This document shows, piece by piece, positions 1,826 through 64,000 of a stretch of DNA of 64,000 nucleotides. Numbering within the stretch: position 1 is the stretch's first letter; every line of letters starts with the position of its first letter. Source of the DNA: Acidobacteriota bacterium. GTDB taxonomy: Bacteria > Acidobacteriota > UBA890 > WLXD01. Location: the NCBI GenBank assembly GCA_036012155.1, contig DASCOT010000236.1, positions 40,655 to 104,654 of the forward strand, read 5' to 3'. Position numbers and translations under genes: made by a program. The notes beneath the pieces were generated by a model that was not told the origin of the DNA, made no database searches, and saw only the letters and a list, made by a program, of their open reading frames with translations.

Positions 1826-1978
1826 GGGAGTCTCCGGCTAGCCGCGGAGAATGAGCTCGCCGCGATCGATCTTGCCGAGGTGCGTGCGGGGAAAGTTCTC
1901 CGGCAACTCTACCTCGCGCGCGTACTCATGCGCCTCGAAGCCACCCCCGAAGGTGATCTGGTGGGCCTCCGCCGCCGG

Positions 1979-2794
1979 TCAGCAGATCCGGTAGTCGCCG
2001 TCCGGAGCGATGGTCGGGAGCCTATAGCGCTTCCTGATCAGAAGCCGGTACAGCCTCGCATCGGTAGTCGCCAGTTTCTCCGGCGTGTTGAGCCTCCACT
2101 CGTGGCGAATCTGGTCGAACCGGCCGGGGAAGTCCTGTAAGCCAAGCAACGATGTCAGCCCCCAGTAGAAGTACTCGGTCGCCTGGCAAGAATAGTCACA
2201 GGTGACATCGTCATAGGTGTACCAGGCCGAATCCGAGTATTGCTCCGGAATCTGCAGGAGATGCCCGCCGCGGGCGATGTCCATCGCCTTGGCGAGCTTG
2301 GTTCCGGCCCGTTCTCCCCAGATCCGTGGATATGCTCGAGCCAGGCCCACGTGTGAGATCAGGTGGAGCACCTCCTCGAGGGAAGCGTCGAATCGACCCT
2401 TGGCGGCCCCTCCGGGGTACGTCTCCGCCGCCGCCACGTCCTGAAGCTCGATGGCATCCGACGTCTCGTCGTCAACCGCCTCGAAGAACGCCTCCGTCTC
2501 GCGTGAATCGGCGAACATCACCATCGAGGCGCGGGCCGCGAGCAACTTTCTCAACACTCGTTTGTTGTCCACAGCACCGTCTGCGTCGTTGTCCAGGTAC
2601 TGAGCCAGCACGTTGGCGACGTGAAGCAGCTTTCCCCTCGGGACCGGTGGGGTGGCGTAGATTCGAACTCCGAAGACGTCTACTTGGCGATCGAAAGCGG
2701 CCGCGAAGCCGGTCGGCGCGTCGTCGGACAAGGCGGTGATTTTGAAAGCACCTGCCGCTCGCACCGGAGTCGCCGACACTAGCATCGTGATCAT
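1979..2794 (-). CDS. Secreted hypothetical protein
   Basis: Long ORF 1979..2905; likely start at MITMLVSATPVRAAG signal peptide; no recognisable family. Confidence 0.4.
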   Translation of the reverse strand: MITMLVSATPVRAAGAFKITALSDDAPTGFAAAFDRQVDVFGVRIYATPPVPRGKLLHVANVLAQYLDNDADGAVDNKRVLRKLLAARASMVMFADSRETEAFFEAVDDETSDAIELQDVAAAETYPGGAAKGRFDASLEEVLHLISHVGLARAYPRIWGERAGTKLAKAMDIARGGHLLQIPEQYSDSAWYTYDDVTCDYSCQATEYFYWGLTSLLGLQDFPGRFDQIRHEWRLNTPEKLATTDARLYRLLIRKRYRLPTIAPDGDYRIC

Positions 2795-24381: not shown

Positions 24382-25800
24382 CTACGGGCCCGAGCTGCCG
24401 GCCGCAGACAGCGCCGTGTCGAACGTACGAACCAAGGCATCGATGTCGTCGGGACCGGTGCGATAGTTGCAGACGCAAGCTCGAACAACCTCCGACCCCG
24501 AGGGTAGGCGAATCGTCGAGGCCCAGGCTTGTCCAGAAGCAATCACCCGCGCTACCAGCTCGGAAGCCGTGGCGCCGCCGGATTCGATCCGCGGATGGCT
24601 GAAGCAGACAAGCGGTAGTGGCGTGCGATTGCACAACAGCCACCCTGATTCCCGCAGTCGTTCTCGCAGGCGATCACCCATGGCAGCCTGATGCTCGACG
24701 CGCTCGGCGTAGCCTGGCAGCCCGACCTCGGCCAGAGCCATGAACACCTTGAGCCCGATGAACCGACGACTCCACTGCCACGACACCGTATACGGGTCGT
24801 CGGCTCCCGCAGGGCTGGGCGGCACATACGTCGCCTGAACGTCGAATGCGGCGCGCACCGCTTCGGGCCGGCGACTGAAGAACATACCCGCGGCCATCGG
24901 CACCGACAGCCATTTGTGGGCGTCCCAGGTCATCGAATCGGCCCGTTCGATGCCGACAAGCGCCGGGCGCAGGCGCTCCGACAACAGCGCGCCTCCTCCC
25001 CAGGCGGCGTCGGCGTGCATCCAAACATGCTGCTCACGCGCCACCTCGAGGATCGATTCCAGCGGATCGATGACCCCCGTCGAGGTGGTGCCGGCGGTCG
25101 CGACCACCAGAAACGGTTGCTCGCCCCGTGCTCGGTCGCGCCGCAGCTGGTCACGCAACGCCGCGACGTCCATCCGGAAATCATCGTCTACCGGTACCCG
25201 GCGCACCGCCCTCCGACCCAGCCCGGAGGCCACGGCGATCTTCACGAAGGTGTCGTGCGCCTGCCCGGAGAGATAGAGCGTGGGTTGCGCCGGCAGCGCT
25301 CGCAGCCCCGTCTCCGGAAGGTCCGGGAACGCCGCAACCAACGCCGCCAGCGTGGCGGTGCCGTTGGCCTCGGCGCCGCCGCTGGTGAAGTGGGCCATGC
25401 CGCCGTCCAGGTCCAGACCGACCAGGCCGCCCAGCGCGCCGAGCACCAGACGTTCCATCTCCTGCGCCGCCGGCGAGTGCTCCCAGGCAGCAAGCTGTGG
25501 ATTGAACATCGCCACCAACGCGTCGGCGACCACCGTGATCGGGGGCACGGCGGGATTGAACAGCCCGAAGTAGCGTGGGTGGGTTACCTGCACGGTGTCC
25601 GCGGCCAGCCGCTCGACGATCCGTTCGACGAGCTCGTCCGGCGAGCTCGGCCTCGAGAGGTCGAAGAGACCGCTGATCCGTGCGCGCACCTCGGCGACAG
25701 TTTGCGGCTCGGAAACCGGCCCGGCGGCAATCTGCTCGCCCATTGCCGATACCACCTGACGCAAGCGTAGGAGCGTCGCCAGCACCTCGCTGTCAGGCAT
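24382..25800 (-). CDS. PLP-dependent decarboxylase (fold-type I, group II amino-acid decarboxylase family)
   Basis: SMTWDAHKWLSVP lysine motif, HVWMHADAAWGGG, 472 aa. Confidence 0.85.
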   Translation of the reverse strand: MPDSEVLATLLRLRQVVSAMGEQIAAGPVSEPQTVAEVRARISGLFDLSRPSSPDELVERIVERLAADTVQVTHPRYFGLFNPAVPPITVVADALVAMFNPQLAAWEHSPAAQEMERLVLGALGGLVGLDLDGGMAHFTSGGAEANGTATLAALVAAFPDLPETGLRALPAQPTLYLSGQAHDTFVKIAVASGLGRRAVRRVPVDDDFRMDVAALRDQLRRDRARGEQPFLVVATAGTTSTGVIDPLESILEVAREQHVWMHADAAWGGGALLSERLRPALVGIERADSMTWDAHKWLSVPMAAGMFFSRRPEAVRAAFDVQATYVPPSPAGADDPYTVSWQWSRRFIGLKVFMALAEVGLPGYAERVEHQAAMGDRLRERLRESGWLLCNRTPLPLVCFSHPRIESGGATASELVARVIASGQAWASTIRLPSGSEVVRACVCNYRTGPDDIDALVRTFDTALSAAGSSGP

Positions 25801-26635
25801 GCACAGCAGCCCTCAGGTGCGCCGCCTCCCATGCGAGCATCGCGACCTTGCGCACCGGATCCCAGCGATAGTCACCAAAGTCACCACTGGCGCGCAGCAC
25901 ACGATGACAGGGAATCAGACGCGCAATTCGGTTGTTGCCGACAGCGCTGGCCACGGCGCGATGCGCACCGGGCCTACCGATCGCTGTTGCCACGTCGCCG
26001 TACGAAACGGCGGATCCTTGCGGTATCTCCAGCAGCGCCCGCCATACCTGAATCTGGAAATTGGTGCCGCGCAGCAGCAATCGAAGCGGCGCGTCGTGGC
26101 GATCGAAAGCAAACGCCAGGTGCGCCGCCATCGCCGTGCCGGCATCGTCTCGTAGCAACGCCGCCGCGTACCAGTCGGCGGCAAGATCGTCCACCGCCGC
26201 ATCGCTTCCCCGGTCGTCGATGAACGCCAGCGCCGCAATCCCACGATCGCTCGCGGCGATCAGGAACTCGCCGAAGGTGGAGTCGTGCAATCCATATCGC
26301 AGTTCCAAACCGGCACCGCCCGACTTGTACTCACCGGGAGTCACCGCCTCGGCACTAACGAACAGGTCGTGGAGTCTGGACGGCCCCGAAAGTCCGGTCT
26401 CGAACGATGCCTCGAGCACCGAGGCCGATTCACGCAACACCCTCTTGGCGTGCTGCACCGTGACGAACTGCAGAAACCGCTTCGGTGACACACCGGCCCA
26501 GCGCCGGAACAGGCGCTGAAAATGGAACTTGCTCAACCCGACGTGGCCTGCCACGTCGTCTAGCTGCGGCTGATCATAGGCATGAAACCGCAGGTATCGG
26601 ATGGCCTCCTGGATGCGACGATAGTCTGCGCTCAT
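25793..26635 (-). CDS. AraC-family HTH fused to methylated-DNA-protein-cysteine methyltransferase (Ada-like regulator)
   Basis: N-terminal AraC HTH (DVAGHVGLSKFHFQRLFRRWAGVSP), C-terminal MGMT domain with IPCHRVL active site; start at MSADYRRIQ. Confidence 0.8.
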   Translation of the reverse strand: MSADYRRIQEAIRYLRFHAYDQPQLDDVAGHVGLSKFHFQRLFRRWAGVSPKRFLQFVTVQHAKRVLRESASVLEASFETGLSGPSRLHDLFVSAEAVTPGEYKSGGAGLELRYGLHDSTFGEFLIAASDRGIAALAFIDDRGSDAAVDDLAADWYAAALLRDDAGTAMAAHLAFAFDRHDAPLRLLLRGTNFQIQVWRALLEIPQGSAVSYGDVATAIGRPGAHRAVASAVGNNRIARLIPCHRVLRASGDFGDYRWDPVRKVAMLAWEAAHLRAAVHA

Positions 26636-26848
26636 CGGGTTCCTCTCGGATCTTGTTGTCAGCGAGAAGCCTACGCTACGACCGACCTGAACAGGTCGCG
26701 ACCCGATAGTTGCGCTTGTCGAAAGTTCATCGAAACACGAAATGCTGAAACTTCTTGCGCCATTTTGGCGAATAAATAGGTGACGGGGGCAACCGAACCC
26801 GGTGGTCGCGCGTCTAACAAAGGGAAGAAGGCAAACGGCAACTACGAA

Positions 26849-26891
26849 GCCCGGGTCGTCGGGCCGGAGCACGGGGGGCTCGACGACCCGG
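26849..26891 (+). other. Perfect 12-bp stem / 19-nt loop hairpin (CCCGGGTCGTCG...CGACGACCCGGG) in leader before small ORF
   Basis: Exact inverted repeat read directly; lies 18 nt upstream of ATG 26910. Confidence 0.6.
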
Positions 26892-26909
26892 GAATTGAAA
26901 GGCAAGCAG

Positions 26910-27056
26910 ATGCTGAACCAAATCTTCCCGCTGTCGCTCGCCGCACTGGCGCTCTGGTCGGGCTGGACAGTCATCCGAACGGCGGTCGAGTTGCGTCGCG
27001 AGCTCGCTGTCGCGGTCGTTCGTCGCTCGCCCCGGGGCGCCAGCAGATCCCGCTAG
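26910..27056 (+). CDS. Small putative membrane protein (48 aa)
   Basis: GAAAGG RBS-like then ATG; hydrophobic segment IFPLSLAALALWSGWTVI; no homology recognised. Confidence 0.25.
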   Translation: MLNQIFPLSLAALALWSGWTVIRTAVELRRELAVAVVRRSPRGASRSR

Positions 27057-31719: not shown

Positions 31720-31730
31720 GGAGATCGCCC

Positions 31731-34421
31731 GTGACTTCCCCACCCCATCGGTACCGCGCTGTCGAACTGCCGACCGTCTATCGGCACGTGCTGTGGTGGG
31801 CTGCTCGGTTGGTTCCACGCCTGCGGCGTCCCAGCTGGAGGCGCGAGTGGGAGGCCGAGATGACCTACGCCTACAGCCGCGCGGTGGCCGATGAGCGTGG
31901 CACGAAGCACCTGTTCGCCCGCGCCTTGTGGGCACACATCGACGCCCTCTGGGTATGGAAAGAGGAGTTCACCATGAGACGCGCGCTCGCCGATGTACGC
32001 CTTGCCCTGCGCAGCCTCCGTCACAGTCCGCTGTTCGCCGGCGCCGCAGTTCTCACACTGGCCCTCGGTATTGGCGCCAACACGGCGATCTTCTCAGTGG
32101 TCAACGCGGTCTTGCTGAAGCCGTTGCCGTTCCCGGAACCGGACAGGCTGGTGATGGTGCTGTACGAGGCGCCCGGCATCGGCTTCCCGAGGGTGCCGTT
32201 TTCGGAAGGTTCGTACGTTTTCGTGAATGACAACCAGCAGGCGTTCGAGTCACTCGGAATGCACACCGAGGAGCGCGTGAACATCGTTGGAGATGAGGAG
32301 CCGGAGCAGGTAGCAGGCGCGCGGATCACGCCTTCGGTGCTGCACGCGCTGCGGGTGTTGCCGTCGATCGGCCGCCCGTTTACCGACGCCGACGCCGCTC
32401 CTGGAGCAGAGCCTGTCGCCCTACTCGCGCGCCAGCTGTGGGAGCGCCGATACGGTGCGGACGAGTCGATCGTCGGCCAAACCGTGGAGCTCGACGGCAT
32501 CATGCGCCGCATCGTCGGCATCATGCCGGAAGGGTTCATGTATCCGTCCGAGGAGACCCGTGTGTGGCGACCGCTCGAGCTCGACCCCGCCAACCTCGAC
32601 GAGGGATCATTCAACGTACCCGGCATCGGCCGCCTGGCGCCCGGGGTGACCCTCGAGATGGCTTTCGAAGAATAGGCTGCCCTGGTAGCTCGGTTCAGCG
32701 AGGCGCTGCCCGACACCTTCTCGGAGGCGACACTCGAGCAGGCGCGCTTCGCGCCACTGCTCACGCCACTCAAGGAAATGGTCGTTGGTGATATCAGGCG
32801 GGCACTGTGGGTCGTTCTGGGCACCGTCGGCCTTGTCCTGTTGATCGCCTGCGCCAACGTTGCCAACCTCTTCCTGGTACGAGCTGAATCCAGACGGCGT
32901 GAGGTAACGCTGCGAGCCGCTCTGGGCGCCCGCCGAGTCGACTTGGCACGGTTCTTCCTGACCGAGAGCATGTTGCTGTCGTGCGGCGGCGGTATCGTCG
33001 GGCTTGGCGCGGCGCTGGCAGCGGTGCGCGGCTTCTCCAGCGCCACCCCGGTATCGATCCCGCGAGTCAACGCGATCACTGTCGATACCACGGTCTTGTT
33101 GTTCACTCTCAGCACGTCGTTGATTGCCGGCCTGCTATTTGGCTGCGTGCCCTTGCTTCGCAGCCGCAGCGGCGACATTGCCATGCGGCTTCGAGAGGGC
33201 AGCCGCGGTGCCACGACGGGAAGCCGAGCGCTTGGAATGCGCAATGTGCTGGTCGTGGCGCAAGTGGCACTCGCACTGGTGCTGTTGGTTGGATCAGGCC
33301 TCATGATCCGCAGCTTCCGCGCGTTGCGCAGCGTGGATCCTGGTTTCGAGTCCGCGGACGTGCTGACGGTGCGGCTCGCTCCGCCGGGCGCCGAATACCC
33401 GCACGCGGAGCAGCGGGCCGTTTTCTGGGAAGCGATCCTCGAGCGCGTCGCGACGATACCGCGCGTCGTATCCGTATCGGCAACGTCTCACTTGCCGCTC
33501 AGTGGCAGGATCTCGTCAGGCGACATCAGCATTGAAGATCATCCGAGACAAGACGATGCACTGCCGCCGCTCGCCGACCGCCGAGCCGTTCCCCCCGACT
33601 TCTTCGCCACCCTGGGTATCCCGGTGCTCGAGGGTCGCGAGTTCGTCGCCACGGACGCCGCCGACAACTACCGTGCCGCGGTTGTGAGCGAGTCACTGGC
33701 GCGCCACTGGTGGCCCAACGAGAGTGCCCTGGGCAAGCGCATTGGCGAGAGTGAAGAGGAGGAGTGGTATCAGATCGTCGGTGTGGTGGGGGACGTGCGA
33801 CACGAATCCCTCGAGAAGCCGACGGCAGAGACCGCGTACTTCCCTTTGCGGTCGGGGCCTATCGATGAGATCAGCGTCCCGGGCGGGATGGATCTGGTAG
33901 TGAGAGCCGTTGGCGATCCTGACGCGCTCGCGACGGCCGTCCGCAACGCGATATGGGAAATCGATCCACGGCTGCCGATCGCCAACATGCAACCATTGGA
34001 TCGAATCGTCAGCGATTCGCTGTCGCGTACCTCGTTCACCCTGCTGATGCTCGGCATCGCCGCCGGAGTGGCCCTGCTGCTCGGAGCCATAGGGATCTAC
34101 GGCGTGATCTCCTACATCGTCAGCCAGCGCACTCAGGAGATTGGCGTGCGCATCGCGCTGGGATCCTCGCGAGGCGGCGTTCAGGCGATGGTCGTTCGTC
34201 GGGGCCTCGTTCTGGCCGCCGTCGGGATTGTCATCGGCCTGGGGGCGGCAGTCGCGGTAAGTCGTGTGTTGACGTCGCTGCTGTACGAGGTCAATAGCAA
34301 CGACCCGACGACCTACGCCGGCGTCGCAGCGGTCCTCGGACTGGTGGCGCTGGTCGCCAGCTGGCTGCCGGCAATTCGTGCCTCGAGCGTCGACCCGGTC
34401 GTTGCATTGCGGGCCGATTGA
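31731..34421 (+). pseudogene. ADOP-family (duplicated FtsX/MacB-like) ABC permease with permease-prefix domain, interrupted by in-frame TAG at 32673-32675
   Basis: Two same-frame ORFs (31347..32675, 32778..34421) with continuous ADOP homology across the stop ([32 protein letters not shown]...; ...[31 protein letters not shown]...); AGGAGA-N6-GTG start at 31731. Confidence 0.65.
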
Positions 34422-55161: not shown

Positions 55162-58100
55162 GCGGCGCGATCGCCTGGTTCGCCCGCAACCGCGTCGCTG
55201 CGAACCTGCTCATGGCGTTCGTTCTCGGCGCCGGTGTGATGACGGTCAGCAGGGTGCCGCAGGAGGTCTTCCCGGAGTTCGCCCTCGACCTTATCCAGGT
55301 AACCGTGCCCTATCTGGGCGCCGCCCCCGAAGAGGTCGAGCAGGGGGTCAACGTAAGGATCGAGGAGGCAGTCCAGGGCATCGACGGCATCAAGAAAGTG
55401 ACCTCCACGGCCGCGGAGGGCAACGGCACCGTGATGATCGAGCTCGAAATCGACGCCGATGCGCGCAAGGTTCTCGACGACATCAAGACCAACGTCGATG
55501 CTATCGAGACCTTCCCGCAGGAGACCGAGAAGCCGATCATCCGCGAGCTCACCAACCGTCGGCAGGTGGTCGATGTGGCGATCTTCGGCGACACCGATGA
55601 GCTCTCGCTCAAGCACCTCGCCGAGCGCGTGCGCGACGAGATCGCGGCATTGCCCGAGATCACGCAGGTAGAGGTCGCCAACGCGCGCCCCTACGAGGTA
55701 ACGATCGAGATCTCTGAGGACGCGCTGCGCCGCCACGGCATCACCTTCGATTTCGTAGCCAACGCGGTGCGACGATCGTCGATGGATCTGCCCGGCGGGT
55801 CGGTCAAGACCGACGGTGGCGAGATTCTGCTGCGCACCATGGGCCAGGCCTATACGGGGGATGAGTTCGACAGGCTGGTGCTGTTGACGAGGCCGGATGG
55901 CACACACCTTCAGCTGGGCGATATCGCCAGGGTGGTTGACGGATTCGCCGACACCGACCAGATCTCACGCTTCGACGGCAAGCCGGCGATGCTGGTGAAG
56001 GTCTACCGTACCGGTCGCCAACGGGCTCTCGACGTGGCGGGCGCGGTCAACGGCTACGTCGAGGGAGCACGCGACCGGATGCCAGCGGGCATTGCGCTGA
56101 CCACCTGGCAGGACCAGTCGCGGGTGCTGCGAGATCGTCTCGATATGCTGCTCCGGAATGGCCGCGTCGGGTTCGCGCTCGTCTTCCTGTCGCTGGCTCT
56201 GTTCCTGCGACTGCGACTGGCGTTCTGGGTGAGCCTGGGCATACCGGTCAGCTTCCTGGGGGCGATCTGGCTGATGCCGGGGTTGGACGTGTCGGTGAAC
56301 CTGATGTCGTTGTTCGCTTTCATCCTCGTGCTCGGAATGGTCGTTGATGACGCCATCGTGGTGGGCGAGAACATCTACACGCATCAGCAACGGCACGACG
56401 ATCCCCTTCGCGCGGCGATCGAGGGCACGCGCGAGGTTTCCAAACCGGTGGTTTTCGCGATTCTCACCAGCATGGCTGCGTTCGCACCGCTGCTCGCGGT
56501 GCCCGGTGTGATCGGCAAGATCATGGTGACTGCGCCGCTCATCGTGATCTCGTGCCTGACGTTCTCGTTGGTCGAGTCGCTGTTCATCTTGCCGGCGCAT
56601 CTGTCGCACCGACGGCGCCGCCCGGCAAAGGAGCGCGGCCTCTGGTTTCGCTTGCAGCGCAAGATCTCGGGGGGATTGCACTGGCTCATCGAGAATGTCT
56701 ACGAGCCGGCTCTTCAGGTGGGGTTGCGTTGGCGCTATCTCACTGTTGCGATCGGCGTAGCGACGCTGCTCGTCACGCTGGGTCTAGTTAGCGCCGGCTT
56801 CGTGCGCTTCATCTTCATGCCCGACATCGAGGCCGACTTCGTCATCATGTCGCTGACGATGCCGCAGGGCACACCGGTAGAGGTCACGTCCTCGACCGTC
56901 CGACATATCGAGGAAAGCTCCGAGCGCTTGCGGCAGGAGATCATCGACGACTTCGGCAACGACGCCTTCGTGCACACGTTCGCGGCGATCGGTGCCCAGC
57001 CGATGCAGGCGGCCCAACGCTCGGGGTTCGGCAATGTCGAGATCAGCGGCTCGACGGCCCACCTCGCTGAGGTAACCATCGAGCTCACCCCCGCCGAAAG
57101 CCGCGAAACGGTGTCCAGTGAGTGGGTCGCCAACCGATGGCGCGACCTCACCGGGACCATTCCGGACGCCGTCAGGGTCAACGTCACCGCGTCGTTGTTC
57201 ACAGTCGGAGACGACATCAACATCCAGTTCACCGGCCTCGATCTCGACGCCCTCACCGCTGCGGCGGACATGCTCAAGGATCGTCTCGGCGACTACGACG
57301 GCGTTTACGAGATCAGCGATACCTTCGTGGAAGGCAAGCGCGAGCTGAAGCTCGACATCAAGCCGCAGGCCGAGATCCTCGGATTGACGCTGTCTGACCT
57401 CGGTCGGCAGGTGCGCCAGGCGTTCTACGGCGAAGAAGCGCAGCGCATCCAGCGCGGCCGCGATGACGTTCGCGTAATGGTGCGGTATCCGCAGCAACAG
57501 CGTCGCTCGATCGGCAATCTCGAGGCGATGCGGATCCGCACACCGGGTGGCGCAGAGGTGCCATTCGGTCAGGTGGCAACGGTCGAGCAGGGTCGCGGGT
57601 ACTCGACCATCGAACGGGTGGATCGAAGTCGCGCAGTGAGCGTTACCGCGTCGGTCAACCGTGCCGTCGCTACGCCCGGAAGTATCAACACCGACCTGGC
57701 GAGTACGGTGCTGCCGCAGATCGCCGCTGCCATTCCTGACGTCCGGTTCTCGTTCGAAGGGCAAGCCGCGGAGCAGCGTGACACCACGGGAGGCTTGGTG
57801 CGGGGCTTCGCACTGGCGCTGATCGCCATCTTCGGACTGCTGGCCATCCCGCTGCGCTCCTATGTGCAACCGCTGATCATCATGGCCGCGATCCCCTTCG
57901 GGCTCGTGGGCGCGGTTTGGGGCCACATCATCGTGGGGCTCGACCTGACCATCCTGTCGATGTTCGGTGTCGTTGCTCTCGCCGGTGTCGTGGTCAACGA
58001 CAGCCTGGTCCTGGTGGACTACATCAATCGTCTACTCGAAACCGCCGACGATGTGCGGGGCGCGGTGCTGGAAGCCGGCCGAGCAAGGTTCAGGCCGATC

Positions 58101-58379
58101 CTGTTGACCTCGCTGACGACCTTCGCCGGGCTGCTACCGATGATCCTGGAGAAGAGCTTGCAGGCGCAGTTCTTGATTCCGATGGCCGTATCGCTGGCGT
58201 TCGGCGTGCTCTTTGCCACCTTTGTCATCCTCGCCCTCGTCCCGTGCAGCTACATGATCGTCGACGACGTTCAGAGGCTCCCGGAGAGGTTGCGTGACTG
58301 GCGGCAGCGGAGCGCCGCTGATCTCGGCGAGCCCAGCGAGGACGTGATCGTAGGCCGTCGAAACCCCGCCGCTGGTTGA
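55158..58379 (+). CDS. RND efflux transporter permease (AcrB/CzcA/HAE family)
   Basis: 1073 aa, 12-TM architecture with two large periplasmic loops, conserved TM4 D-containing segment. Confidence 0.9.
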   Translation: MSGAIAWFARNRVAANLLMAFVLGAGVMTVSRVPQEVFPEFALDLIQVTVPYLGAAPEEVEQGVNVRIEEAVQGIDGIKKVTSTAAEGNGTVMIELEIDADARKVLDDIKTNVDAIETFPQETEKPIIRELTNRRQVVDVAIFGDTDELSLKHLAERVRDEIAALPEITQVEVANARPYEVTIEISEDALRRHGITFDFVANAVRRSSMDLPGGSVKTDGGEILLRTMGQAYTGDEFDRLVLLTRPDGTHLQLGDIARVVDGFADTDQISRFDGKPAMLVKVYRTGRQRALDVAGAVNGYVEGARDRMPAGIALTTWQDQSRVLRDRLDMLLRNGRVGFALVFLSLALFLRLRLAFWVSLGIPVSFLGAIWLMPGLDVSVNLMSLFAFILVLGMVVDDAIVVGENIYTHQQRHDDPLRAAIEGTREVSKPVVFAILTSMAAFAPLLAVPGVIGKIMVTAPLIVISCLTFSLVESLFILPAHLSHRRRRPAKERGLWFRLQRKISGGLHWLIENVYEPALQVGLRWRYLTVAIGVATLLVTLGLVSAGFVRFIFMPDIEADFVIMSLTMPQGTPVEVTSSTVRHIEESSERLRQEIIDDFGNDAFVHTFAAIGAQPMQAAQRSGFGNVEISGSTAHLAEVTIELTPAESRETVSSEWVANRWRDLTGTIPDAVRVNVTASLFTVGDDINIQFTGLDLDALTAAADMLKDRLGDYDGVYEISDTFVEGKRELKLDIKPQAEILGLTLSDLGRQVRQAFYGEEAQRIQRGRDDVRVMVRYPQQQRRSIGNLEAMRIRTPGGAEVPFGQVATVEQGRGYSTIERVDRSRAVSVTASVNRAVATPGSINTDLASTVLPQIAAAIPDVRFSFEGQAAEQRDTTGGLVRGFALALIAIFGLLAIPLRSYVQPLIIMAAIPFGLVGAVWGHIIVGLDLTILSMFGVVALAGVVVNDSLVLVDYINRLLETADDVRGAVLEAGRARFRPILLTSLTTFAGLLPMILEKSLQAQFLIPMAVSLAFGVLFATFVILALVPCSYMIVDDVQRLPERLRDWRQRSAADLGEPSEDVIVGRRNPAAG

Positions 58380-58414
58380 GTCTCGGTCTTGTCCCGCGGG
58401 TTCCAGCGCTAGCG

Positions 58415-59332
58415 TCAGCAACCACGCAGAGCCAACAGCAGGATCGCCAGCACCACGACGATACCGCCGACAATGAGAGTCGTCCGGTTCCGCGCCGTAG
58501 CTTGCACGCGCGCGGCGGCTCCTTCGCCGATCCTTCCCTGCAGAGCGGGCACCCGCAGCTCGAGGTCATCCAGCGCTGCAACCAAAGCGCGTGGGTCAGC
58601 GAAGCGCTCGCGCGGGTTCTCTGCGAGACAACGCAGAATCAACGGGTCGATCTCGGGCGGCACTTCGCCGCGTACCTGACTCGGAATACGAAACCCGCCA
58701 ACCGGCAGAGTTCCGGTGAGCAGCTCGTAGCCAACGACACCCAACGAGTACACGATCGATTGTTGATCCGGCGCAGCGTCAGGGGTAGCCATGCGCTCGG
58801 GCGCCAGGTAGCGCACCGCTCCGAGCGAGTGCAGCGTTGCGGTGGAGCCTGCATCCATTCCCGCCGGCGCCATCGGCATGCCGACGTCGATGACCTTCAC
58901 AGCGTGACCTTCGCCGTGGACGAGGATGCGATCCGGATCGACGCCTTCACAAGGCAAGCCCTTGCCGTGCGCATGTCCAAGGGCTCTGGCGGTGCCACGC
59001 AGCACGTCGATCACGTCGTGCGTGTCGAGGCGCCGGTGCGCCAGTACCTTGCGAAGCGACGAGCCCTTCACGAACTCCATCGCGGCGTAGGCGCGGTCCT
59101 CGTGCTCACCGCAATCGAGCACGTCGACGACGTTCTCGTGGTCGAGATCTCTGGTAGCCGTCAGGATCTCGAGACGTCGAGCGCGCACGGCTTCCGGCTC
59201 GCCGGCCGGTTACAGCAGGATGGCAACGGCGCCTCCGCCATCGCCAGCCGCCTTATAGACCTCGCTCTGCCCGCCTTCGTCGAGCCTCGCCTCGACCTTG
59301 TAGCCACCGATCCTCTCGGGTATCTCAGTCAT
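58415..59332 (-). pseudogene. Ser/Thr protein kinase-like gene with in-frame TAA at 59210-59212 and degenerate catalytic motifs (pseudokinase-like)
   Basis: Minus-strand translation MTEIPERIGGYKVEARLDEGGQSEVYKA...AVAILL*PAGEPEAV..HENVV...YAAMEFVKG...DVG...APE: kinase N-lobe and C-lobe in one frame split by TAA; HRD replaced, DFG is DVG; start ATG overlaps FHA gene stop. Confidence 0.6.
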
Positions 59333-60629
59333 CGATCTCGATCACCAGGGTCACAGCACCGACCCGCAGCTTGTCGAAGTCATTCAAGACGACGCTATCG
59401 CTATCCACGGGCTCATCGTTGAGCCGCGTCCCGTGAGTGCTGCCGAGGTCTCGAACGCGGAATTCATCATCTTCCTACAGGATGGACAAATGTCGCTTGC
59501 TGGCAGCCGGGTCGGAGAGGACGAGGTCACATTCGGGATCGCGCCCCACCACGAGGTCGCCGGCACCGAGCTCGAGTGAGTCCTCGCGACCGGTTCCCTC
59601 ACTAACGACAAGTCGAGCCGGCGGCGGAGAGCCTGGGTCGCGAGTCGAGCGATCGGGCGGCGAGATCTCGAGGGTGCGGATCGGGAACGGAATGACGATG
59701 TCGTTGCGACGGAACTGTTCCCAGATTTGGGTGCGCAGAGCGCTCTCGATCCGCCGCAGCGGGCCCATGTCGTCCACCCAGGAGCGCAGCTCATAGGTGA
59801 TCGAGCTCTCGTCGAAGTTGTTCACGTAGACCTCGGCGCTCGGTCGCGCCAGCACACCGTCTACCTGACCGGCGGCCGCGAGCATCGCCGCCTTGACCTT
59901 GTGGGGCGGGGTGAGGAAATGCGCCCCGACATAGATCCGAGACATGTGTAGCGGATGTGGATACAGATAGTTGGTGAGGGTCTCCCTCGCCATGTTGGCG
60001 TTGGGGAAGATCACCGTGTCGTTCTGGCGCGTACGGATCGACGTGGTGCGCCAGGTGATCTGCGTTACCCGTCCCTCGTGCTCCCCCACCTGAATCCAAT
60101 CGTTGATACGGAACGGCCGCTCGAGCGCGATCACGACCCCGGCAAAGAAGTTTGTCAGGATCGGCTGCAGCGCCAGACCCAGGACCAAGGAGGTAACGGC
60201 GCTGGTGGCGAGCAGCGGCCCGACATTCGTATCCGGAAACGCCACCGTCACGATGGCCGCTCCGGAAACGGCGTAGATAAAGAAGCGCGTGACCCGCGGC
60301 AACAGCGGCGGCACCTCGATGTCCCATTGGCGCCTCAGCAGGACCTCGTAGCCGAGGTAGGTAACACCGCGGATCACCATCACGATGAGGAAGAACCAGA
60401 TGATCGCTGCCAACACGCCGACGCCGCGATCCATGTCGCCGACTCCCGCCACGTTGGCAATCGCAACGCCGAGAGCAAACGCCACTAGCGAGACGGGCAG
60501 TCCGAGCGCTCGCATGGCCGGGTAGCGGCGGCGCAGAGCAAGAAGCGCGACGTAGACCACCGCTGCGGGCACGCCTCCGGCGACCAACGTCGCCGCCAGG
60601 CTCCCACTGAAGTCGCTCGGCATGAGCAC
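59325..60629 (-). pseudogene. MscS-family mechanosensitive channel fused to C-terminal FHA domain, interrupted by in-frame TAG at 59475-59477
   Basis: MscS core (TM helices, beta domain) then FHA start LVVGRDPECDLVLSDPAASKRHLSIL, TAG, then same-frame FRVRDLGSTHGTRLNDEPV...VTLVIEIDD completing the FHA domain. Confidence 0.65.
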
Positions 60630-60701
60630 CTTCCCTCGCAGGCCGTGGTGGATGTGGTGGACGTGTAGCGGCGCGATTCTAGAGCGTCCGGCGTCTGGAC
60701 A

Positions 60702-60733
60702 CTACTCGCTGCGCGACGCTACTCGCTGTGCGA
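60702..60733. repeat. Tandem 17-bp direct repeat CTACTCGCTG(C/T)GCGA x2 upstream of MscS-FHA operon
   Basis: Read directly in 117-nt intergenic region 60630-60745. Confidence 0.5.
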
Positions 60734-60745
60734 GGACAGCTCGGC

Positions 60746-61720
60746 TCAGTCGAGCAGGCCGTGCTCGCCCATCCAAGACTCGTTGAGCTTCGACAGGTAA
60801 CGCTCACCGGAGTCAGGCAGCAAGGTCACCACCAGTGCGTCATCGGCGGCGCCGCGCGCTACGCGCCGTGCCCCGACGACCGCCGCCCCGCCTGACGAAC
60901 CGGTAAAGATCGCCTCGGTACGGGCCAACTCGAGGACAGCACGATAGGCGTCCGGATCGTCCACCGTGATCACCTCGTCGATGTAATCCCACCACACGGT
61001 CTCGGGCATGAAGTCCTCGCCGATACCGTCGATCAGATACTGGTGGATCTGCTCCTCCGGCGGCATCTCACCGTGGTCTTTGTAGTAGGCGTAGATCGAA
61101 CCCACGGTGTCCACACCCACGACTCGGACATCGGCGTTCTGCTCCTTCAGATACTTGGCCGTGCCGCTGATCGTGCCGCCGGTTCCCATCCCGGTGACCC
61201 AGTGGGTGATGCGCCCCTCGGTCTGTCGCCAGATCTCCGGGCCGGTCGTGAGGTAGTGAGCCTGTGGATTCGCCTGGTTGTAGTACTGGTAGGGCAGATA
61301 GGCGCCCTCTTCGTCGCGCAGCCGCTCGGCGACCTTGTAGTAGGAACGCGGATCGTCGGCGTCCACCTCGGTAGGACAGAGGATCACCTCCACACCGAAA
61401 GCCTGCAGCAGCGCCACCTTCTCCTTGGGAATCTTGTCGGCCGCGGTACAGACCATCCGGTAGCCCTTGAGGATGGCGGCCATGGCCAGGCCCAGGCCGG
61501 TATTGCCGGAGGTCGGCTCGACGATCGTGCCGCCCGGCTGTAGCTGCCCGGATTCTTCCCCGGCGGCGATCAGCGGCGGCCCGATACGGTCCTTGACGCT
61601 CGATCCCGGGTTGAACGATTCGATCTTGGCGACGAGCTCCGCACCTTGCGGCCAGAAGCGCCGCAGGCGCACCAACGGCGTGTCACCGAGCGCTCCCAGG
61701 ATGTCGTCGAGAATCTCCAC
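60746..61720 (-). CDS. Cysteine synthase / cystathionine beta-synthase family PLP enzyme (CysK/CysM-like)
   Basis: PLP-lysine motif NPGSSVKDRIG, glycine-rich loop PTSGNTGLGLAM; probable GTG start at 61720 giving 324 aa. Confidence 0.75.
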   Translation of the reverse strand: MEILDDILGALGDTPLVRLRRFWPQGAELVAKIESFNPGSSVKDRIGPPLIAAGEESGQLQPGGTIVEPTSGNTGLGLAMAAILKGYRMVCTAADKIPKEKVALLQAFGVEVILCPTEVDADDPRSYYKVAERLRDEEGAYLPYQYYNQANPQAHYLTTGPEIWRQTEGRITHWVTGMGTGGTISGTAKYLKEQNADVRVVGVDTVGSIYAYYKDHGEMPPEEQIHQYLIDGIGEDFMPETVWWDYIDEVITVDDPDAYRAVLELARTEAIFTGSSGGAAVVGARRVARGAADDALVVTLLPDSGERYLSKLNESWMGEHGLLD

Positions 61721-61806
61721 CAGCTCGCTGCTCCAAGTACCGCCGGCGGCGGAAGTTGCGGGTATAGTGGCCCCCTGACCACACTCCCGCCAGGCAACGG
61801 CCAGGG

Positions 61807-62175
61807 TTGGGGGCAAGTTACCACGTCAGCCGGGAGCGCATTGTCGTGCGCAACCCACCGAGCGACATCGGTCCGGCGGAGTTGATCGAGCGCCTTGGCG
61901 GACCAAAGGAGACGATCATTCTCGACGTGCGCTCCGCCTGGGAATATCGTCGGGGGCACCTGCCCGGAGCCCGGCGCACCCCGCTCTGGAAGGCACTCCT
62001 GGCATCAACCGCTGCGTCGTTGCGAGGCTCCACCGAGATCGTCGCCTATTGCGATCTGGGTCCACGAGCCTGGCTGGCGCGCGCGTTCCTGGAGCGCCGT
62101 GGCATCGGCGTTCGACTGTTGCGCGGCCACATGTCGCGCTGGCGACGGCGGCGGTTACCGCTCGCGGACAAGTAG
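61807..62175 (+). CDS. Rhodanese-like domain sulfurtransferase
   Basis: ILDVRSAWEYRRGHLPGA and active-site loop CDLGPRA (Cys-containing CX4-5R loop). Confidence 0.6.
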   Translation: MGASYHVSRERIVVRNPPSDIGPAELIERLGGPKETIILDVRSAWEYRRGHLPGARRTPLWKALLASTAASLRGSTEIVAYCDLGPRAWLARAFLERRGIGVRLLRGHMSRWRRRRLPLADK

Positions 62176-62185
62176 CCGGTGGCGG

Positions 62186-62797
62186 CTAGTCGAGCAGCCC
62201 GAGGTTGCGAAGTTGTTCCGGCGGGCAGCCTCTCCAGCGCGAGACGTACTCGTTGCCCATGTACTCGAGGTCCTCGATGCCCATCTTGCTGGTCCAGAAC
62301 CCAGTCGCCGTAAGATCGCGGAAGGCGTTGAAGAAGGCCACGCCGTGGCGCAGCTCGTGTGGCGCACCGGCCGGCCAGGCGATGGCATCGAGCAGTTGCT
62401 CCCGCTGCGTCGCGCCGCAGGCGACAAGGCGCTCCCCGTAGCGATCATGCGCCTGGCGGTCGAGCCAGGCGAGCCCGCCGCGCATTGCTACCTGGCGCTC
62501 CGGCTGGTCGGCCATCATGAAATCCATGAACTCCGGCACGCCCGCCTCTGTGGCGCTTCCAGAGCGCTCATCAGCGGGAATGATGATGTCGACCAGCTGC
62601 TCCACCGTAGCGTACTCGTGCGCCGTGAAGAACTGCGGCACGTAGCTGTCCCCGCGCTGCGCGGCCTCCTGCAGGGCGGCCGCCGCGCGCTCGCTCGCCA
62701 GCACGGCCTGGGCCGGTGACCATGCCAAGCTGGCCGTCGCGGATGCGAGCAGGCCGAGTGCCTCGCGGCGGCTCAGGTCAGGCGTCCGTCGACCCAT
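62186..62797 (-). CDS. Gluconate 2-dehydrogenase subunit 3-like protein with Tat signal
   Basis: Twin-arginine motif SRREALGLLASATASLAWSP; family-typical small subunit preceding a GMC flavoprotein. Confidence 0.65.
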   Translation of the reverse strand: MGRRTPDLSRREALGLLASATASLAWSPAQAVLASERAAAALQEAAQRGDSYVPQFFTAHEYATVEQLVDIIIPADERSGSATEAGVPEFMDFMMADQPERQVAMRGGLAWLDRQAHDRYGERLVACGATQREQLLDAIAWPAGAPHELRHGVAFFNAFRDLTATGFWTSKMGIEDLEYMGNEYVSRWRGCPPEQLRNLGLLD

Positions 62798-64000
62798 CAG
62801 AGATTGCCTCGCTGCATCTCATCGGCAATGTACTCGCCAGTGCGCATGGCGAGGGCGAGAATCGTCCACGTGGGGTTCTTGTTGGCCTGCGACACGAATG
62901 GCCCGCCGTCGGCGACAAACACGTTCGGCGCGTCGTGTGCCTGGCAGAACGCATTGAGTGCCGAGGTGCCCGGATCATCGCCCATGCGCACAACCCCGAG
63001 CTCGTGGATGATGCGGCCTCCCGGCTCGATCCCGTAGCCTTCCGACGCATCCGGCATCGGCGTCAACGGCGTGCCGCCCATAGTGTGGATGATCTCGCGG
63101 AAGGTCTCCTGCATGTGCCGTACTTGGCGGATCTCGTGCTCGCTCCACTGGAAGTGAAACTTCAACACCGGGATACCCCAGCGATCGACCGCCTCCGGGT
63201 CGATCTCGCAGTAGCAATCGTCGTTGGTGACCATCTCGCCGCGACCCGCGAAACCGATCGTAGCGCCGTAGTACTCGCGATACATGTTCTTCAGGTCTCG
63301 TCCGTAGCCGCCACCCCCCGGATAACGGTGAATGCCGGACATGAACCCGTACCTGGGCAGCGCGCGACCACCGCCCATCTCGACGTGATAGCCGCGCGGA
63401 AAGTCGAGCCGACGGTTATCGAGCCACCAGGGCATGTACAGGTGCGAGCCCGCGGCACCGTCCTCGTTGTGCGGGACACCTCCCGCAAGCGCTGGAATGA
63501 ACCCCCGTACGCTAGTGCCCGTGCTGTCGGTAAGGTACTTGCCAACGACGCCACTGGAGTTAGCCAGACCGTTGGGAAACAGACCCGACTTCGAGTTCAG
63601 CAACAGCCGCGCCGACTCACAGGCGCTCGCCGCAAGCACCACGATGCGGGCGCGGACTTGCTCGTCGCGCCCGGTGCGCTTGTCGACATATGCGACCCCG
63701 CTCGCCCGTCCCTGTCCGTCGACCGTCACCTCACGTGCCATTGCGTCGGTGATCACCTGGAGCCGACCGGTGGCCAGCGCCGGAGGCAGCAAGACCGAAG
63801 GTGTGGAGAAGTTGGAGCCCGTCGCGCAGTCGCGACGACATTGGCCACAGTAGTGGCACGCCGGGCGGCCATTGAGTGGCCGCGTCAAGATCGACTTCCG
63901 AGACGCAACGCACGGGATGTTGAGCCCGACGCAGGCGCGCTGAACGAGCTGTTCCCAGCAACGGGGCTCGGGAGGTGGCTGGAAGATCCCGTCAGGATCG
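62797..64000 (-). CDS. GMC family FAD-dependent oxidoreductase (5' end beyond window)
   Basis: GMC C-terminal signature HELGVVRMGDDPGTSALNAFCQAHDAPNVFVADGGPFVSQANKNPTWT; upstream frame stays open to position 64000. Confidence 0.8.
   Translation of the reverse strand, partial: DPDGIFQPPPEPRCWEQLVQRACVGLNIPCVASRKSILTRPLNGRPACHYCGQCRRDCATGSNFSTPSVLLPPALATGRLQVITDAMAREVTVDGQGRASGVAYVDKRTGRDEQVRARIVVLAASACESARLLLNSKSGLFPNGLANSSGVVGKYLTDSTGTSVRGFIPALAGGVPHNEDGAAGSHLYMPWWLDNRRLDFPRGYHVEMGGGRALPRYGFMSGIHRYPGGGGYGRDLKNMYREYYGATIGFAGRGEMVTNDDCYCEIDPEAVDRWGIPVLKFHFQWSEHEIRQVRHMQETFREIIHTMGGTPLTPMPDASEGYGIEPGGRIIHELGVVRMGDDPGTSALNAFCQAHDAPNVFVADGGPFVSQANKNPTWTILALAMRTGEYIADEMQRGNL

What the first reader, a model, noticed from the sequence alone, without database searches (positions are those of the whole stretch)
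59325..60629. MscS-FHA fusion gene interrupted by in-frame TAG inside the FHA domain
The MscS channel with a C-terminal FHA (phosphothreonine-binding) domain is itself an unusual architecture. The FHA domain is cut after ...SKRHLSIL by TAG 59475-59477 and resumes in the same frame with FRVRDLGSTHGTRLN...VTLVIEIDD, so a single codon is replaced. The gene is translationally overlapped (ATGACTGA) with a kinase gene that also carries a premature stop.
Basis: seen in the sequence. Interest (0 to 1): 0.55.

Follow-up and report, generated by a model that had tools for sequence, protein, structure and literature searches.

The report
Nonsense-truncated MscS-FHA channel and pseudokinase operon
A two-gene operon for a stretch-activated membrane channel with a phosphothreonine-binding tail, plus its membrane-bound dead-kinase partner, carries one real single-base stop mutation in each gene, so this is ordinary recent gene decay and not unusual decoding.

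Summary
On the minus strand, the MscS+FHA gene (60623..59325) has an in-frame TAG at 59475-59477 inside the FHA domain. The overlapping kinase-like gene (59332..58415) has an in-frame TAA at 59210-59212.

Intact orthologues (79-89% identical, 430 aa) have TGG (Trp; W in 104 of 116 homologues) and TAT/TAC (Tyr) at those codons, so each stop is a one-base change. Both stops occur in 25 contigs from about 12 NCBI, ENA and Logan assemblies that are at least 99.4% identical, so they are not assembly errors.

Readthrough has no support:
- TAG ends 17 of 47 genes in the window.
- The two stops are different codons.
- The RNA downstream is unstructured.
- The FHA remnant shows decay: Gly-to-Asp in the conserved NG motif and a unique 6-nt duplication.

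Pairwise dN/dS is not raised, so the mutations are recent. The most likely effect is loss of the FHA/pseudokinase regulatory part, with the channel core still translatable as 382 aa.

The MscS-FHA plus pseudokinase pair is common in Acidobacteriota and is broken independently in several relatives. A third fixed nonsense codon (TAG 32673-32675) interrupts a permease gene in the same window. Interest is low.

The parts
59325..60623 (-). Ancestral MscS-FHA reading frame (432 codons plus stop), from ATG 60623 to TGA 59325-59327, now interrupted at codon 383.
   Evidence: Translation; Pfam PF00924, PF21082 and PF00498; intact 430-aa orthologues P0001, P0003, P0004 and P0005.
59475..60623 (-). The part that can still be translated: a 382-aa MscS channel core with a non-foldable stub of the FHA domain. 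NCBI annotates it as HJO05654.1, 'mechanosensitive ion channel'.
   Evidence: ORF list; cluster members P0241, P0242 and P0002, all 382 aa; MS_channel_2nd at residues 157-221 and MS_channel_3rd at 240-313 are complete.
59475..59477 (-). In-frame TAG (codon 383). The ancestral codon is TGG (Trp), so this is a G-to-A transition at the second codon position.
   Evidence: DNA alignment with L002 and L003; TGG in all 5 orthologues; W in 104 of 116 homologues. In the AlphaFold model of orthologue P0001 the residue lies within beta-strand 379-384.
59340..59600 (-). FHA domain region (Pfam Yop-YscD_cpl/FHA, residues about 344-430), split by the TAG.
   Evidence: In the orthologue model the FHA region has pLDDT 92-97, with strands at 336-428, six of which lie after the stop position.
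59328..59474 (-). Untranslated FHA remnant (49 codons), still open in frame. It carries Gly-to-Asp (GAT 59415-59417) at the conserved NG motif.
   Evidence: G in 109 of 116 homologues at that column.
59394..59405 (-). Lineage-specific 6-nt tandem duplication (GATAGC GATAGC) inside the FHA remnant. It adds 2 codons found in none of the 5 orthologues and, at most, one of 116 homologues.
58415..59332 (-). Ancestral membrane-anchored pseudokinase reading frame (305 codons). Its ATG overlaps the MscS-FHA stop (ATGACTGA, 59332-59325), and it ends in a hydrophobic C-terminal segment.
   Evidence: Pfam Pkinase 73.6 bits; intact 305-aa orthologues. The beta3 Lys, HRD Asp and DFG Asp are absent.
59210..59212 (-). 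In-frame TAA (codon 41 of the pseudokinase). The ancestral codon is TAT/TAC (Tyr).
   Evidence: The 40-aa plus 257-aa split is called in L001, L010, L012, L014, L015, L016 and L019.
58415..59188 (-). The 257-aa ORF that remains from GTG 59188. NCBI annotates it as HJO05652.1, 'protein kinase'. It lacks the N-terminal strands of the N-lobe.
59278..59278 (-). Polymorphic site in the pseudokinase N-terminal fragment: window GAA (Glu), L001 and orthologues CAA (Gln).
59584..59584 (-). Polymorphic site in the FHA region: window GAG (Glu), L001 and orthologues GGG (Gly).
60421..60421 (-). Polymorphic site in the transmembrane region: window GTC (Val), 8 other population loci and the orthologues GGC (Gly).

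Best explanation
Both stops are genuine single-base nonsense mutations: TGG to TAG at Trp383 of the MscS-FHA channel, and TAY to TAA at Tyr41 of its partner pseudokinase. They are present in every sampled contig of a nearly clonal Acidobacteriota population.

The ancestral unit is a conserved, translationally coupled two-gene module. It pairs an MscS-type channel carrying a C-terminal FHA (phosphothreonine-binding) domain with a membrane-anchored, catalytically dead kinase-fold protein.

Shown:
- Translation of the channel gene now stops inside an FHA beta-strand, leaving a 382-aa product with a complete channel core.
- Fewer than half of the FHA strands remain.
- The partner gene is cut at codon 41.

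Inferred:
- The FHA stub cannot fold, so the phospho-dependent regulatory part is lost.
- The pseudokinase loses translational coupling, because ribosomes now terminate 143 nt upstream of its ATG.
- The channel core may still work as an unregulated MscS.
- In the intact module, FHA probably docks on phosphorylated Thr of the pseudokinase's activation-loop-like segment (T164 and T166 are invariant), with phosphorylation supplied by another kinase.

The event is recent relative to species divergence.
For: - Ancestral codons: TGG in 5 of 5 orthologues and W in 104 of 116 homologues; TAT/TAC in 3 of 3 full-length pseudokinase orthologues.
- Population support: the truncated 382-aa protein exists as three variants on 25 contigs from NCBI, ENA and Logan assemblies. 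Twelve loci align to the window at 99.4-100%, and all carry the TAG and, where covered, the TAA.
- No intact allele of this species is among the homologues; the best intact hit is 89% identical.
- TAG is a normal terminator here: it ends 17 of 47 genes in the window.
- Decay in the FHA region: the window lineage's unique replacements cluster there (6 of 8, against 10 of 43 in five other lineages; Fisher p=0.008). There is also G403D at the NG motif and a unique 6-nt duplication after the stop.
- Structure: in the orthologue model the FHA region has pLDDT 92-97, the stop falls in strand 379-384, and six strands follow it.
- The module is conserved down to about 45% identity, with an overlapping pseudokinase gene.
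- The same module is broken independently in relatives: an IS insertion in L030, an internal deletion in P0015, and pseudokinase truncations in L005 and L006.
Against: - Pairwise dN/dS involving the window (0.09-0.13 for the channel, 0.12-0.19 for the pseudokinase) is no higher than between intact orthologues. Long-term relaxation is therefore not shown.
- Both frames remain open and free of frameshifts after the stops.
- The excess of FHA-region changes rests on 8 substitutions.
- Some assemblies may share raw reads, so the number of independent samples is lower than the number of contigs.
- No expression or protein data exist, so low-level readthrough, and activity or inactivity of the truncated channel, cannot be tested here.
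Confidence: 0.8

Rival explanations
1. The stops are sequencing or assembly errors, and the real genes are intact.
For: The source is a metagenome-assembled genome. Some related long-read MAGs carry frameshifted copies of this gene that could be indel errors (P0012).
Against: The same two substitutions appear in 25 contigs built by different assemblers and deposited in NCBI, ENA and Logan. These include three protein variants that differ elsewhere but all end at the same TAG. They are substitutions, not homopolymer indels.
Confidence: 0.02
2. The stops are read through or recoded (amber suppression, pyrrolysine-like decoding or programmed readthrough), so full-length MscS-FHA and pseudokinase are still made.
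For: Both frames stay open after the stops with no frameshift. Pairwise dN/dS of the downstream pseudokinase part is still low, at 0.10-0.16. A third in-frame TAG sits in the permease gene.
Against: - Two different stop codons (TAG and TAA) would each need suppression.
- TAG terminates 17 of 47 genes in the window.
- The ancestral codons differ from each other: Trp, Tyr and, in the permease, Gln.
- No orthologue has a stop at either site.
- The RNA downstream of the TAG folds no better than shuffled sequence, z=-0.04.
- There is no tRNA gene in the window.
- The FHA remnant carries a Gly-to-Asp change at a 94%-conserved Gly and a unique 2-codon insertion.
- Low dN/dS is expected for any recent pseudogene.
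Confidence: 0.04
3. The whole operon is dead. The truncated 382-aa channel is unstable or not expressed, so the channel itself is also a pseudogene and not an FHA-less but working MscS.
For: A partly folded 45-residue FHA stub on each of seven subunits could trigger degradation or misassembly. In relatives the channel gene itself is destroyed (IS insertion in L030; internal deletion in P0015). One of only two unique core changes (G68V) is a derived transmembrane-region polymorphism.
Against: The stop lies in the last 12% of the gene and leaves every MscS domain complete. Only 2 lineage-specific replacements fall in the 340 core residues, against 6 in the roughly 90 FHA residues. Solved MscS channels of about 280 aa function without any C-terminal extension (and general knowledge of E. 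coli MscS).
Confidence: 0.35
4. Loss of the FHA/pseudokinase regulation was positively selected (an adaptive knock-out) and not fixed by drift.
For: Two hits fall in the two functionally linked genes of one operon. The same module is lost repeatedly in related lineages.
Against: An unrelated permease gene in the same 64 kb also carries a fixed nonsense codon. A further nonsense variant segregates in the neighbouring PALP gene. All 5 population SNPs are non-synonymous or nonsense. This pattern fits weak purifying selection in a clonal lineage. With 3 nonsense hits among about 50 genes, two falling in adjacent genes has a chance of roughly 0.1 (my estimate).
Confidence: 0.15

Closest known systems
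MscS-family mechanosensitive channels (E. coli MscS, MscK, MscM, YnaI; PF00924)
   Same: The channel core, residues about 68-316, aligns to solved MscK, MscS and MscM chains at E 1e-16 to 1e-19. The Pfam beta-domain and C-terminal domain are complete. The orthologue model shows N-terminal helices followed by beta and alpha/beta domains.
   Different: It carries a C-terminal FHA domain on a linker of about 25 residues. No solved chain combines the two, and no NCBIfam equivalog passes its cut-off. In this window the FHA is cut by a stop.
FHA-domain regulators controlled by Hanks-type kinases (M. tuberculosis GarA, C. glutamicum OdhI, FhaB/FipA)
   Same: These are the best sequence matches for residues 331-425, at E about 1e-10. 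The GR and SxxH signature residues are conserved.
   Different: Those are small soluble proteins. Here the FHA is fused to a channel, and its genomic partner is a catalytically dead kinase-fold protein.
Rv1747, the M. tuberculosis ABC transporter with FHA domains regulated by PknF
   Same: It is a membrane transporter with FHA domain(s), encoded next to a Ser/Thr kinase-family gene. Its FHA matches at E=3e-5. The link to kinase regulation comes from my knowledge of that system.
   Different: The transporter class is different, and the partner there (PknF) is an active kinase. Here the beta3 Lys, HRD Asp and DFG Asp are missing.
Bacterial unitary pseudogenes created by single nonsense mutations
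   Same: One-base changes from sense codons that are conserved in all orthologues, present in every sampled contig of the population, and still otherwise intact.
   Different: Nothing essential. The only particular features are that two linked genes of one module are both hit, and that the channel-gene stop spares the channel core.

Membership tests
MscS mechanosensitive channel family | Match to the MscS beta-domain profile (PF00924) above Pfam's gathering score | tested here: met
   75 bits against a cut-off of 20.2, covering profile positions 2-66 of 68.
MscS mechanosensitive channel family | MscS C-terminal alpha/beta domain (PF21082), and homology of the core to solved MscS, MscK and MscM structures | tested here: met
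   29.8 bits against a cut-off of 21; PDB hits 7uw5, 7dlu and 2vv5 at E 1e-17 to 1e-19 over residues 68-316.
MscS mechanosensitive channel family | Heptameric assembly and tension-gated conductance | not testable with these tools
   Needs electrophysiology or an osmotic down-shock rescue assay.
FHA domain (PF00498) | Profile match and the signature residues Gly-Arg, Ser-x-x-His and Asn | tested here: met
   60.6 bits against a cut-off of 20.7 across the masked stop. G360-R361, S375 and H378 lie upstream of the stop and N402 downstream. All are invariant or nearly so in 116 homologues.
FHA domain (PF00498) | An uninterrupted reading frame that encodes the whole 11-strand beta-sandwich | tested here: not met
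   TAG at codon 383 lies inside the strand at residues 379-384, and six strands follow it in the orthologue model.
Hanks-type Ser/Thr protein kinase | Protein kinase fold (PF00069 match) | tested here: met
   73.6 bits against a cut-off of 31.7, residues 11-213.
Hanks-type Ser/Thr protein kinase | Catalytic residues: beta3 Lys (VAIK), HRD Asp and DFG Asp | tested here: not met
   The window has VAILL, CEGVDPDR and DVG. The same loss is seen in orthologues and in partners only 31-35% identical; only the L007/L002 sequence keeps the Lys. It is therefore a pseudokinase.
Programmed stop-codon readthrough or recoding (including pyrrolysine) | The stop codon is conserved at the site in orthologues | tested here: not met
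   TGG in 5 of 5 orthologues and W in 104 of 116 homologues; TAT/TAC at the pseudokinase site.
Programmed stop-codon readthrough or recoding (including pyrrolysine) | The codon is rare or absent as an ordinary terminator, or a stimulatory RNA structure lies downstream | tested here: not met
   TAG ends 17 of 47 genes in the window. The 136-nt stretch spanning the TAG and mostly downstream of it folds at z=-0.04 against shuffles.
Programmed stop-codon readthrough or recoding (including pyrrolysine) | Dedicated suppressor tRNA and decoding machinery in the genome | not testable with these tools
   There is no tRNA in the 64-kb window, and the rest of the genome is not available here.
Unitary pseudogene by nonsense mutation | Orthologues are intact, and the mutation is a one-base change found throughout the population | tested here: met
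Unitary pseudogene by nonsense mutation | Relaxed selective constraint after the stop | tested here: inconclusive
   Pairwise dN/dS is not raised. There is, however, an FHA-specific excess of unique replacements (p=0.008), G403D, and a 6-nt duplication.

The most novel reading that the evidence does not exclude
The most novel reading that the evidence does not exclude has two parts. First, the MscS-FHA plus membrane-pseudokinase pair would be a widespread, uncharacterised phospho-switch that gates a mechanosensitive channel, with FHA docking on phosphorylated T164/T166 of the pseudokinase. Second, this lineage would be a natural 'regulation-off' mutant whose truncated channel still works, or the UAG would be partly read through to give both FHA-less and FHA-bearing subunits in one heptamer.
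Probability: 0.05. Interest if true: 0.6.

Novelty: new member of a known kind. Interest (0 to 1): 0.25.

Why it matters
As found, it matters mainly for annotation. NCBI lists the fragments as ordinary proteins (HJO05654.1, HJO05652.1, HJO05634.1), although they are nonsense-truncated remnants.

Two modest points go beyond that:
- The intact module, an MscS channel with an FHA tail translationally coupled to a membrane pseudokinase, is abundant in Acidobacteriota. I found no study of it and no solved structure, so it is a candidate link between Ser/Thr phospho-signalling and osmotic-release channels.
- This clade offers several natural knock-outs of the module (nonsense, IS insertion, deletions) that could guide experiments.

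The density of nonsense alleles (three present in all sampled contigs plus one segregating, all within 64 kb) suggests weak purifying selection in this clonal lineage.

Tried and rejected
- **Assembly error.** Rejected, because 25 contigs from different assemblers carry the stops.
- **Stop-codon reassignment.** Rejected on terminator usage: TGA 28, TAG 17, TAA 2.
- **Recoding signal.** The RNA fold downstream of the TAG is unremarkable, and there is no tRNA in the window.
- **Long-standing pseudogene.** Pairwise NG86 dN/dS does not show it.
- **Window-wide screen for other in-frame stops** flanked by coding-like GC patterns. It recovered the permease TAG at 32673. A candidate at TGA 1979-1981 proved to be a normal stop, because homologues of about 290 aa end there. 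Suspicious ORF junctions at 9-11.6 kb, 19.4-20.5 kb, 34.4-37.9 kb and 43.8-46.4 kb have complete Pfam domains and are separate intact genes.
- **Literature.** Searches on MscS with FHA, and on the sample accessions, found nothing relevant.
- **Promoter and terminator scan** of the operon gave nothing above shuffled expectation.
Full report
**1. The observation**

On the minus strand a reading frame opens at GTG 60629 / ATG 60623 and runs to TAG at 59475-59477 (...DPAASKRHLSIL*). It continues in the same frame with EDDEFRVRDLGSTHGTRLNDEPV...VTLVIEIDD to TGA at 59325-59327.

With the stop masked, Pfam finds MS_channel_2nd (PF00924, 75 bits), MS_channel_3rd (PF21082, 29.8 bits) and one FHA domain (PF00498, 60.6 bits; residues 360-424) that spans the stop. 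Taken separately, the piece before the stop matches FHA profile positions 2-25 and the piece after it matches positions 30-67.

The next gene starts at ATG 59332 within ATGACTGA. It is a protein-kinase-fold gene (PF00069, 73.6 bits) with an in-frame TAA at 59210-59212, codon 41.

**2. What the stops replace**

A search of 5.8 billion protein clusters returned intact proteins of about 430 aa that are 89, 84, 82 and 79% identical (P0001, P0003, P0004, P0005). It also returned a 382-aa protein, 99% identical, that ends at the same ...HLSIL (P0002).

The orthologous loci (L002-L008, Acidobacteriota MAGs) have an intact 430-aa MscS-FHA gene. In L002, L003, L004, L007 and L008 it is followed by an intact 305-aa kinase-fold gene with the same 8-nt overlap.

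In codon alignments the TAG column is TGG in all five orthologues. The TAA column is TAT or TAC in all three full-length pseudokinase orthologues. Across 116 homologues the TAG column is Trp in 104. Each stop is therefore a one-base nonsense mutation of a conserved sense codon.

**3. Are they real?**

- The truncated channel protein exists as three variants (P0002, P0241 = NCBI HJO05654.1, P0242). All are 382 aa. They sit on 25 contigs from NCBI metagenome assemblies (GCA_024712185.1, GCA_024712125.1, GCA_024712105.1, GCA_024712145.1, GCA_024711865.1), Logan assemblies (SRR4465032, SRR13782123, SRR13782125, SRR13782127, SRR28208100) and ENA assemblies (ERZ27245254, ERZ23491264).
- Twelve fetched loci align to the window at 99.4-100% identity. 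All carry the TAG and, where they reach that far, the TAA.
- No intact allele from this species appeared among the homologues.
- Some assemblies may share raw data. Even so, different assemblers and at least three haplotypes agree, so an assembly or sequencing artefact is excluded for practical purposes.

**4. Is the stop decoded?**

Nothing suggests it.

- TAG terminates 17 of 47 genes in the window, against TGA 28 and TAA 2.
- The two stops are different codons, and they replace different amino acids.
- The 136-nt RNA stretch spanning the TAG and mostly downstream of it folds no better than shuffled sequence (z=-0.04).
- The window has no tRNA gene.
- The FHA remnant has acquired changes the family does not tolerate. 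One is Gly-to-Asp in the NG motif, where 109 of 116 homologues have Gly. The other is a 6-nt tandem duplication (GATAGCGATAGC, 59394-59405), which adds two residues absent from all five orthologues and, at most, present in one of 116 homologues.

**5. Age and selective regime**

Pairwise Nei-Gojobori dN/dS between the window and its orthologues is 0.09-0.13 for the channel gene and 0.12-0.19 for the pseudokinase. Orthologue-orthologue pairs give the same range. The neighbouring genes serve as controls: PALP is about 0.05 and AcrB about 0.10. With dS of about 0.65-1.0 to the nearest intact relative, the nonsense mutations are recent on that scale.

There is a local signal, however. Of the 8 amino-acid changes unique to the window lineage at otherwise invariant columns, 6 fall in the FHA region. 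In the five other lineages the figure is 10 of 43 (one-sided Fisher p=0.008, or 0.02 without the stop itself). That fits constraint being lost on the FHA part and kept on the channel core, but the numbers are small.

Within the population only five SNPs were seen in up to 7 kb across 12 loci. All are non-synonymous or nonsense. They comprise three in these two genes, one in AcrB, and a GAG-to-TAG change in the neighbouring PALP gene in one assembly.

**6. What the module is**

MscS-FHA is not a rare architecture here. Of the 120 best homologues, 116 have PF00924 plus PF00498 at about 430 aa, mostly from Acidobacteriota and Thermoanaerobaculia metagenomes.

In two of three distant members examined (45-47% identical; L021, L022), a kinase-fold gene follows directly and overlaps the channel gene's stop. 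In the third (L023) a toxin-antitoxin insertion separates them.

The partner lacks the beta3 lysine, the HRD aspartate and the DFG aspartate, both in the window clade and in the distant members. It ends in a hydrophobic C-terminal segment, and it keeps an APE motif and two invariant threonines (T164, T166) in the activation-loop-like segment. It is therefore a membrane-anchored pseudokinase.

An AlphaFold2 model of orthologue P0001 (mean pLDDT 87) shows the helical membrane part, the MscS beta and alpha/beta domains, a low-confidence linker (about residues 311-330), and a confident FHA beta-sandwich (pLDDT 92-97). The stop position lies inside strand 379-384, with six strands after it.

No solved structure combines MscS and FHA. 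The best matches are MscK, MscS and MscM for the core, and GarA, OdhI and FhaB for the FHA. I found no paper on the fusion.

**7. Most likely mechanism**

Shown:
- The channel gene now encodes 382 aa with a complete MscS core and an FHA stub.
- The pseudokinase is cut at codon 41.

Inferred:
- The stub cannot fold, so FHA function is lost.
- Ribosomes now terminate 143 nt before the pseudokinase ATG, which removes translational coupling.
- In the intact system FHA probably binds phospho-threonine on the pseudokinase, phosphorylated in trans, and so couples Ser/Thr signalling to channel behaviour.
- The truncated channel may still act as an unregulated MscS. Equally, it may be unstable. I cannot separate these two outcomes.

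**8. Context: a decaying module in a lineage with many nonsense alleles**

Relatives have broken the same module independently:
- In L030 (protein 92% identical), an IS3-type element cuts the channel gene after residue 258. The FHA and pseudokinase are absent from the next 4 kb.
- P0015 is an L006-like gene with an out-of-frame internal deletion.
- L005 and L006 have pseudokinase genes truncated near residue 167.

Within the window, a PadR-linked FtsX/MacB-type permease (about 31722-34421, plus strand) has an in-frame TAG at 32673-32675 where the orthologue P0121 has Gln. That split is present on 21 contigs.

A screen for further in-frame stops found none. The candidate at TGA 1979-1981 is a normal terminator.

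**9. Verdict**

This is a real, recent pair of nonsense mutations, present in every sampled contig, in a conserved but uncharacterised MscS-FHA/pseudokinase operon. It is ordinary gene decay, not recoding. Interest is low. The residual value lies in the uncharacterised module itself and in correcting annotation.

Noticed in passing
window 31722-34421 (+), TAG at 32673-32675: This is a third nonsense-interrupted gene. It is a PadR-linked FtsX/MacB_PCD permease of about 900 aa, cut by an in-frame TAG where the 81%-identical orthologue P0121 has Gln (implying CAG to TAG). The split is present on 21 contigs from several samples. NCBI annotates the downstream fragment as HJO05634.1.
   Followed up: partly
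window 61519 (PALP/cysteine-synthase-like gene 60746-61720, minus strand); locus L017: One assembly of the same population (GCA_024712145.1) has GAG to TAG at codon 68 of the neighbouring PALP gene, splitting it into 67 and 245 aa. This is a segregating nonsense allele.
   Followed up: partly
window 56475-63623 compared with loci L001 and L010-L020: The population is nearly clonal across about 12 assemblies (99.4-100% identity). All five SNPs found are non-synonymous or nonsense and none is synonymous. This is a hint of weak purifying selection, but the sample is far too small to test it.
   Followed up: partly
L030 4001-5963; L005 5286-6802; L006 5286-5792; protein P0015: The same module is inactivated independently in related lineages: an IS3-type insertion after residue 258 of the channel (L030), an out-of-frame internal deletion (P0015), and pseudokinase genes truncated near residue 167 (L005, which also has a deletion into AcrB, and L006).
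   Followed up: partly
window 58415-59332 (-); L021 4733-5407; L022 4783-5796: The partner of MscS-FHA is a conserved membrane-anchored pseudokinase with no beta3 Lys, HRD Asp or DFG Asp. It has two invariant threonines in its activation-loop-like segment (T164, T166), which are candidate docking sites for the FHA domain.
   Followed up: partly
window 1838-1981 (-): A 46-codon open, coding-like stretch follows the TGA of the gene at 1979-2905, in the same frame. Homologues of about 290 aa end at that TGA, so it is a normal stop and not a fourth interrupted gene.
   Followed up: yes
window 58415-59188, 59475-60623, 32778-34421: Public annotation names the fragments as ordinary proteins and does not mark them as pseudogenes: HJO05652.1 'protein kinase', HJO05654.1 'mechanosensitive ion channel' and HJO05634.1 'ABC transporter permease'.
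   Followed up: no
window 25796-26974 (-): This is an Ada-like gene combining an AraC-type HTH domain with an O6-methylguanine-DNA methyltransferase domain, and it appears intact. Two of the three fixed nonsense changes are GC-to-AT transitions (TGG to TAG shown; CAG to TAG inferred from the orthologue's Gln). No link to this gene was tested.
   Followed up: no
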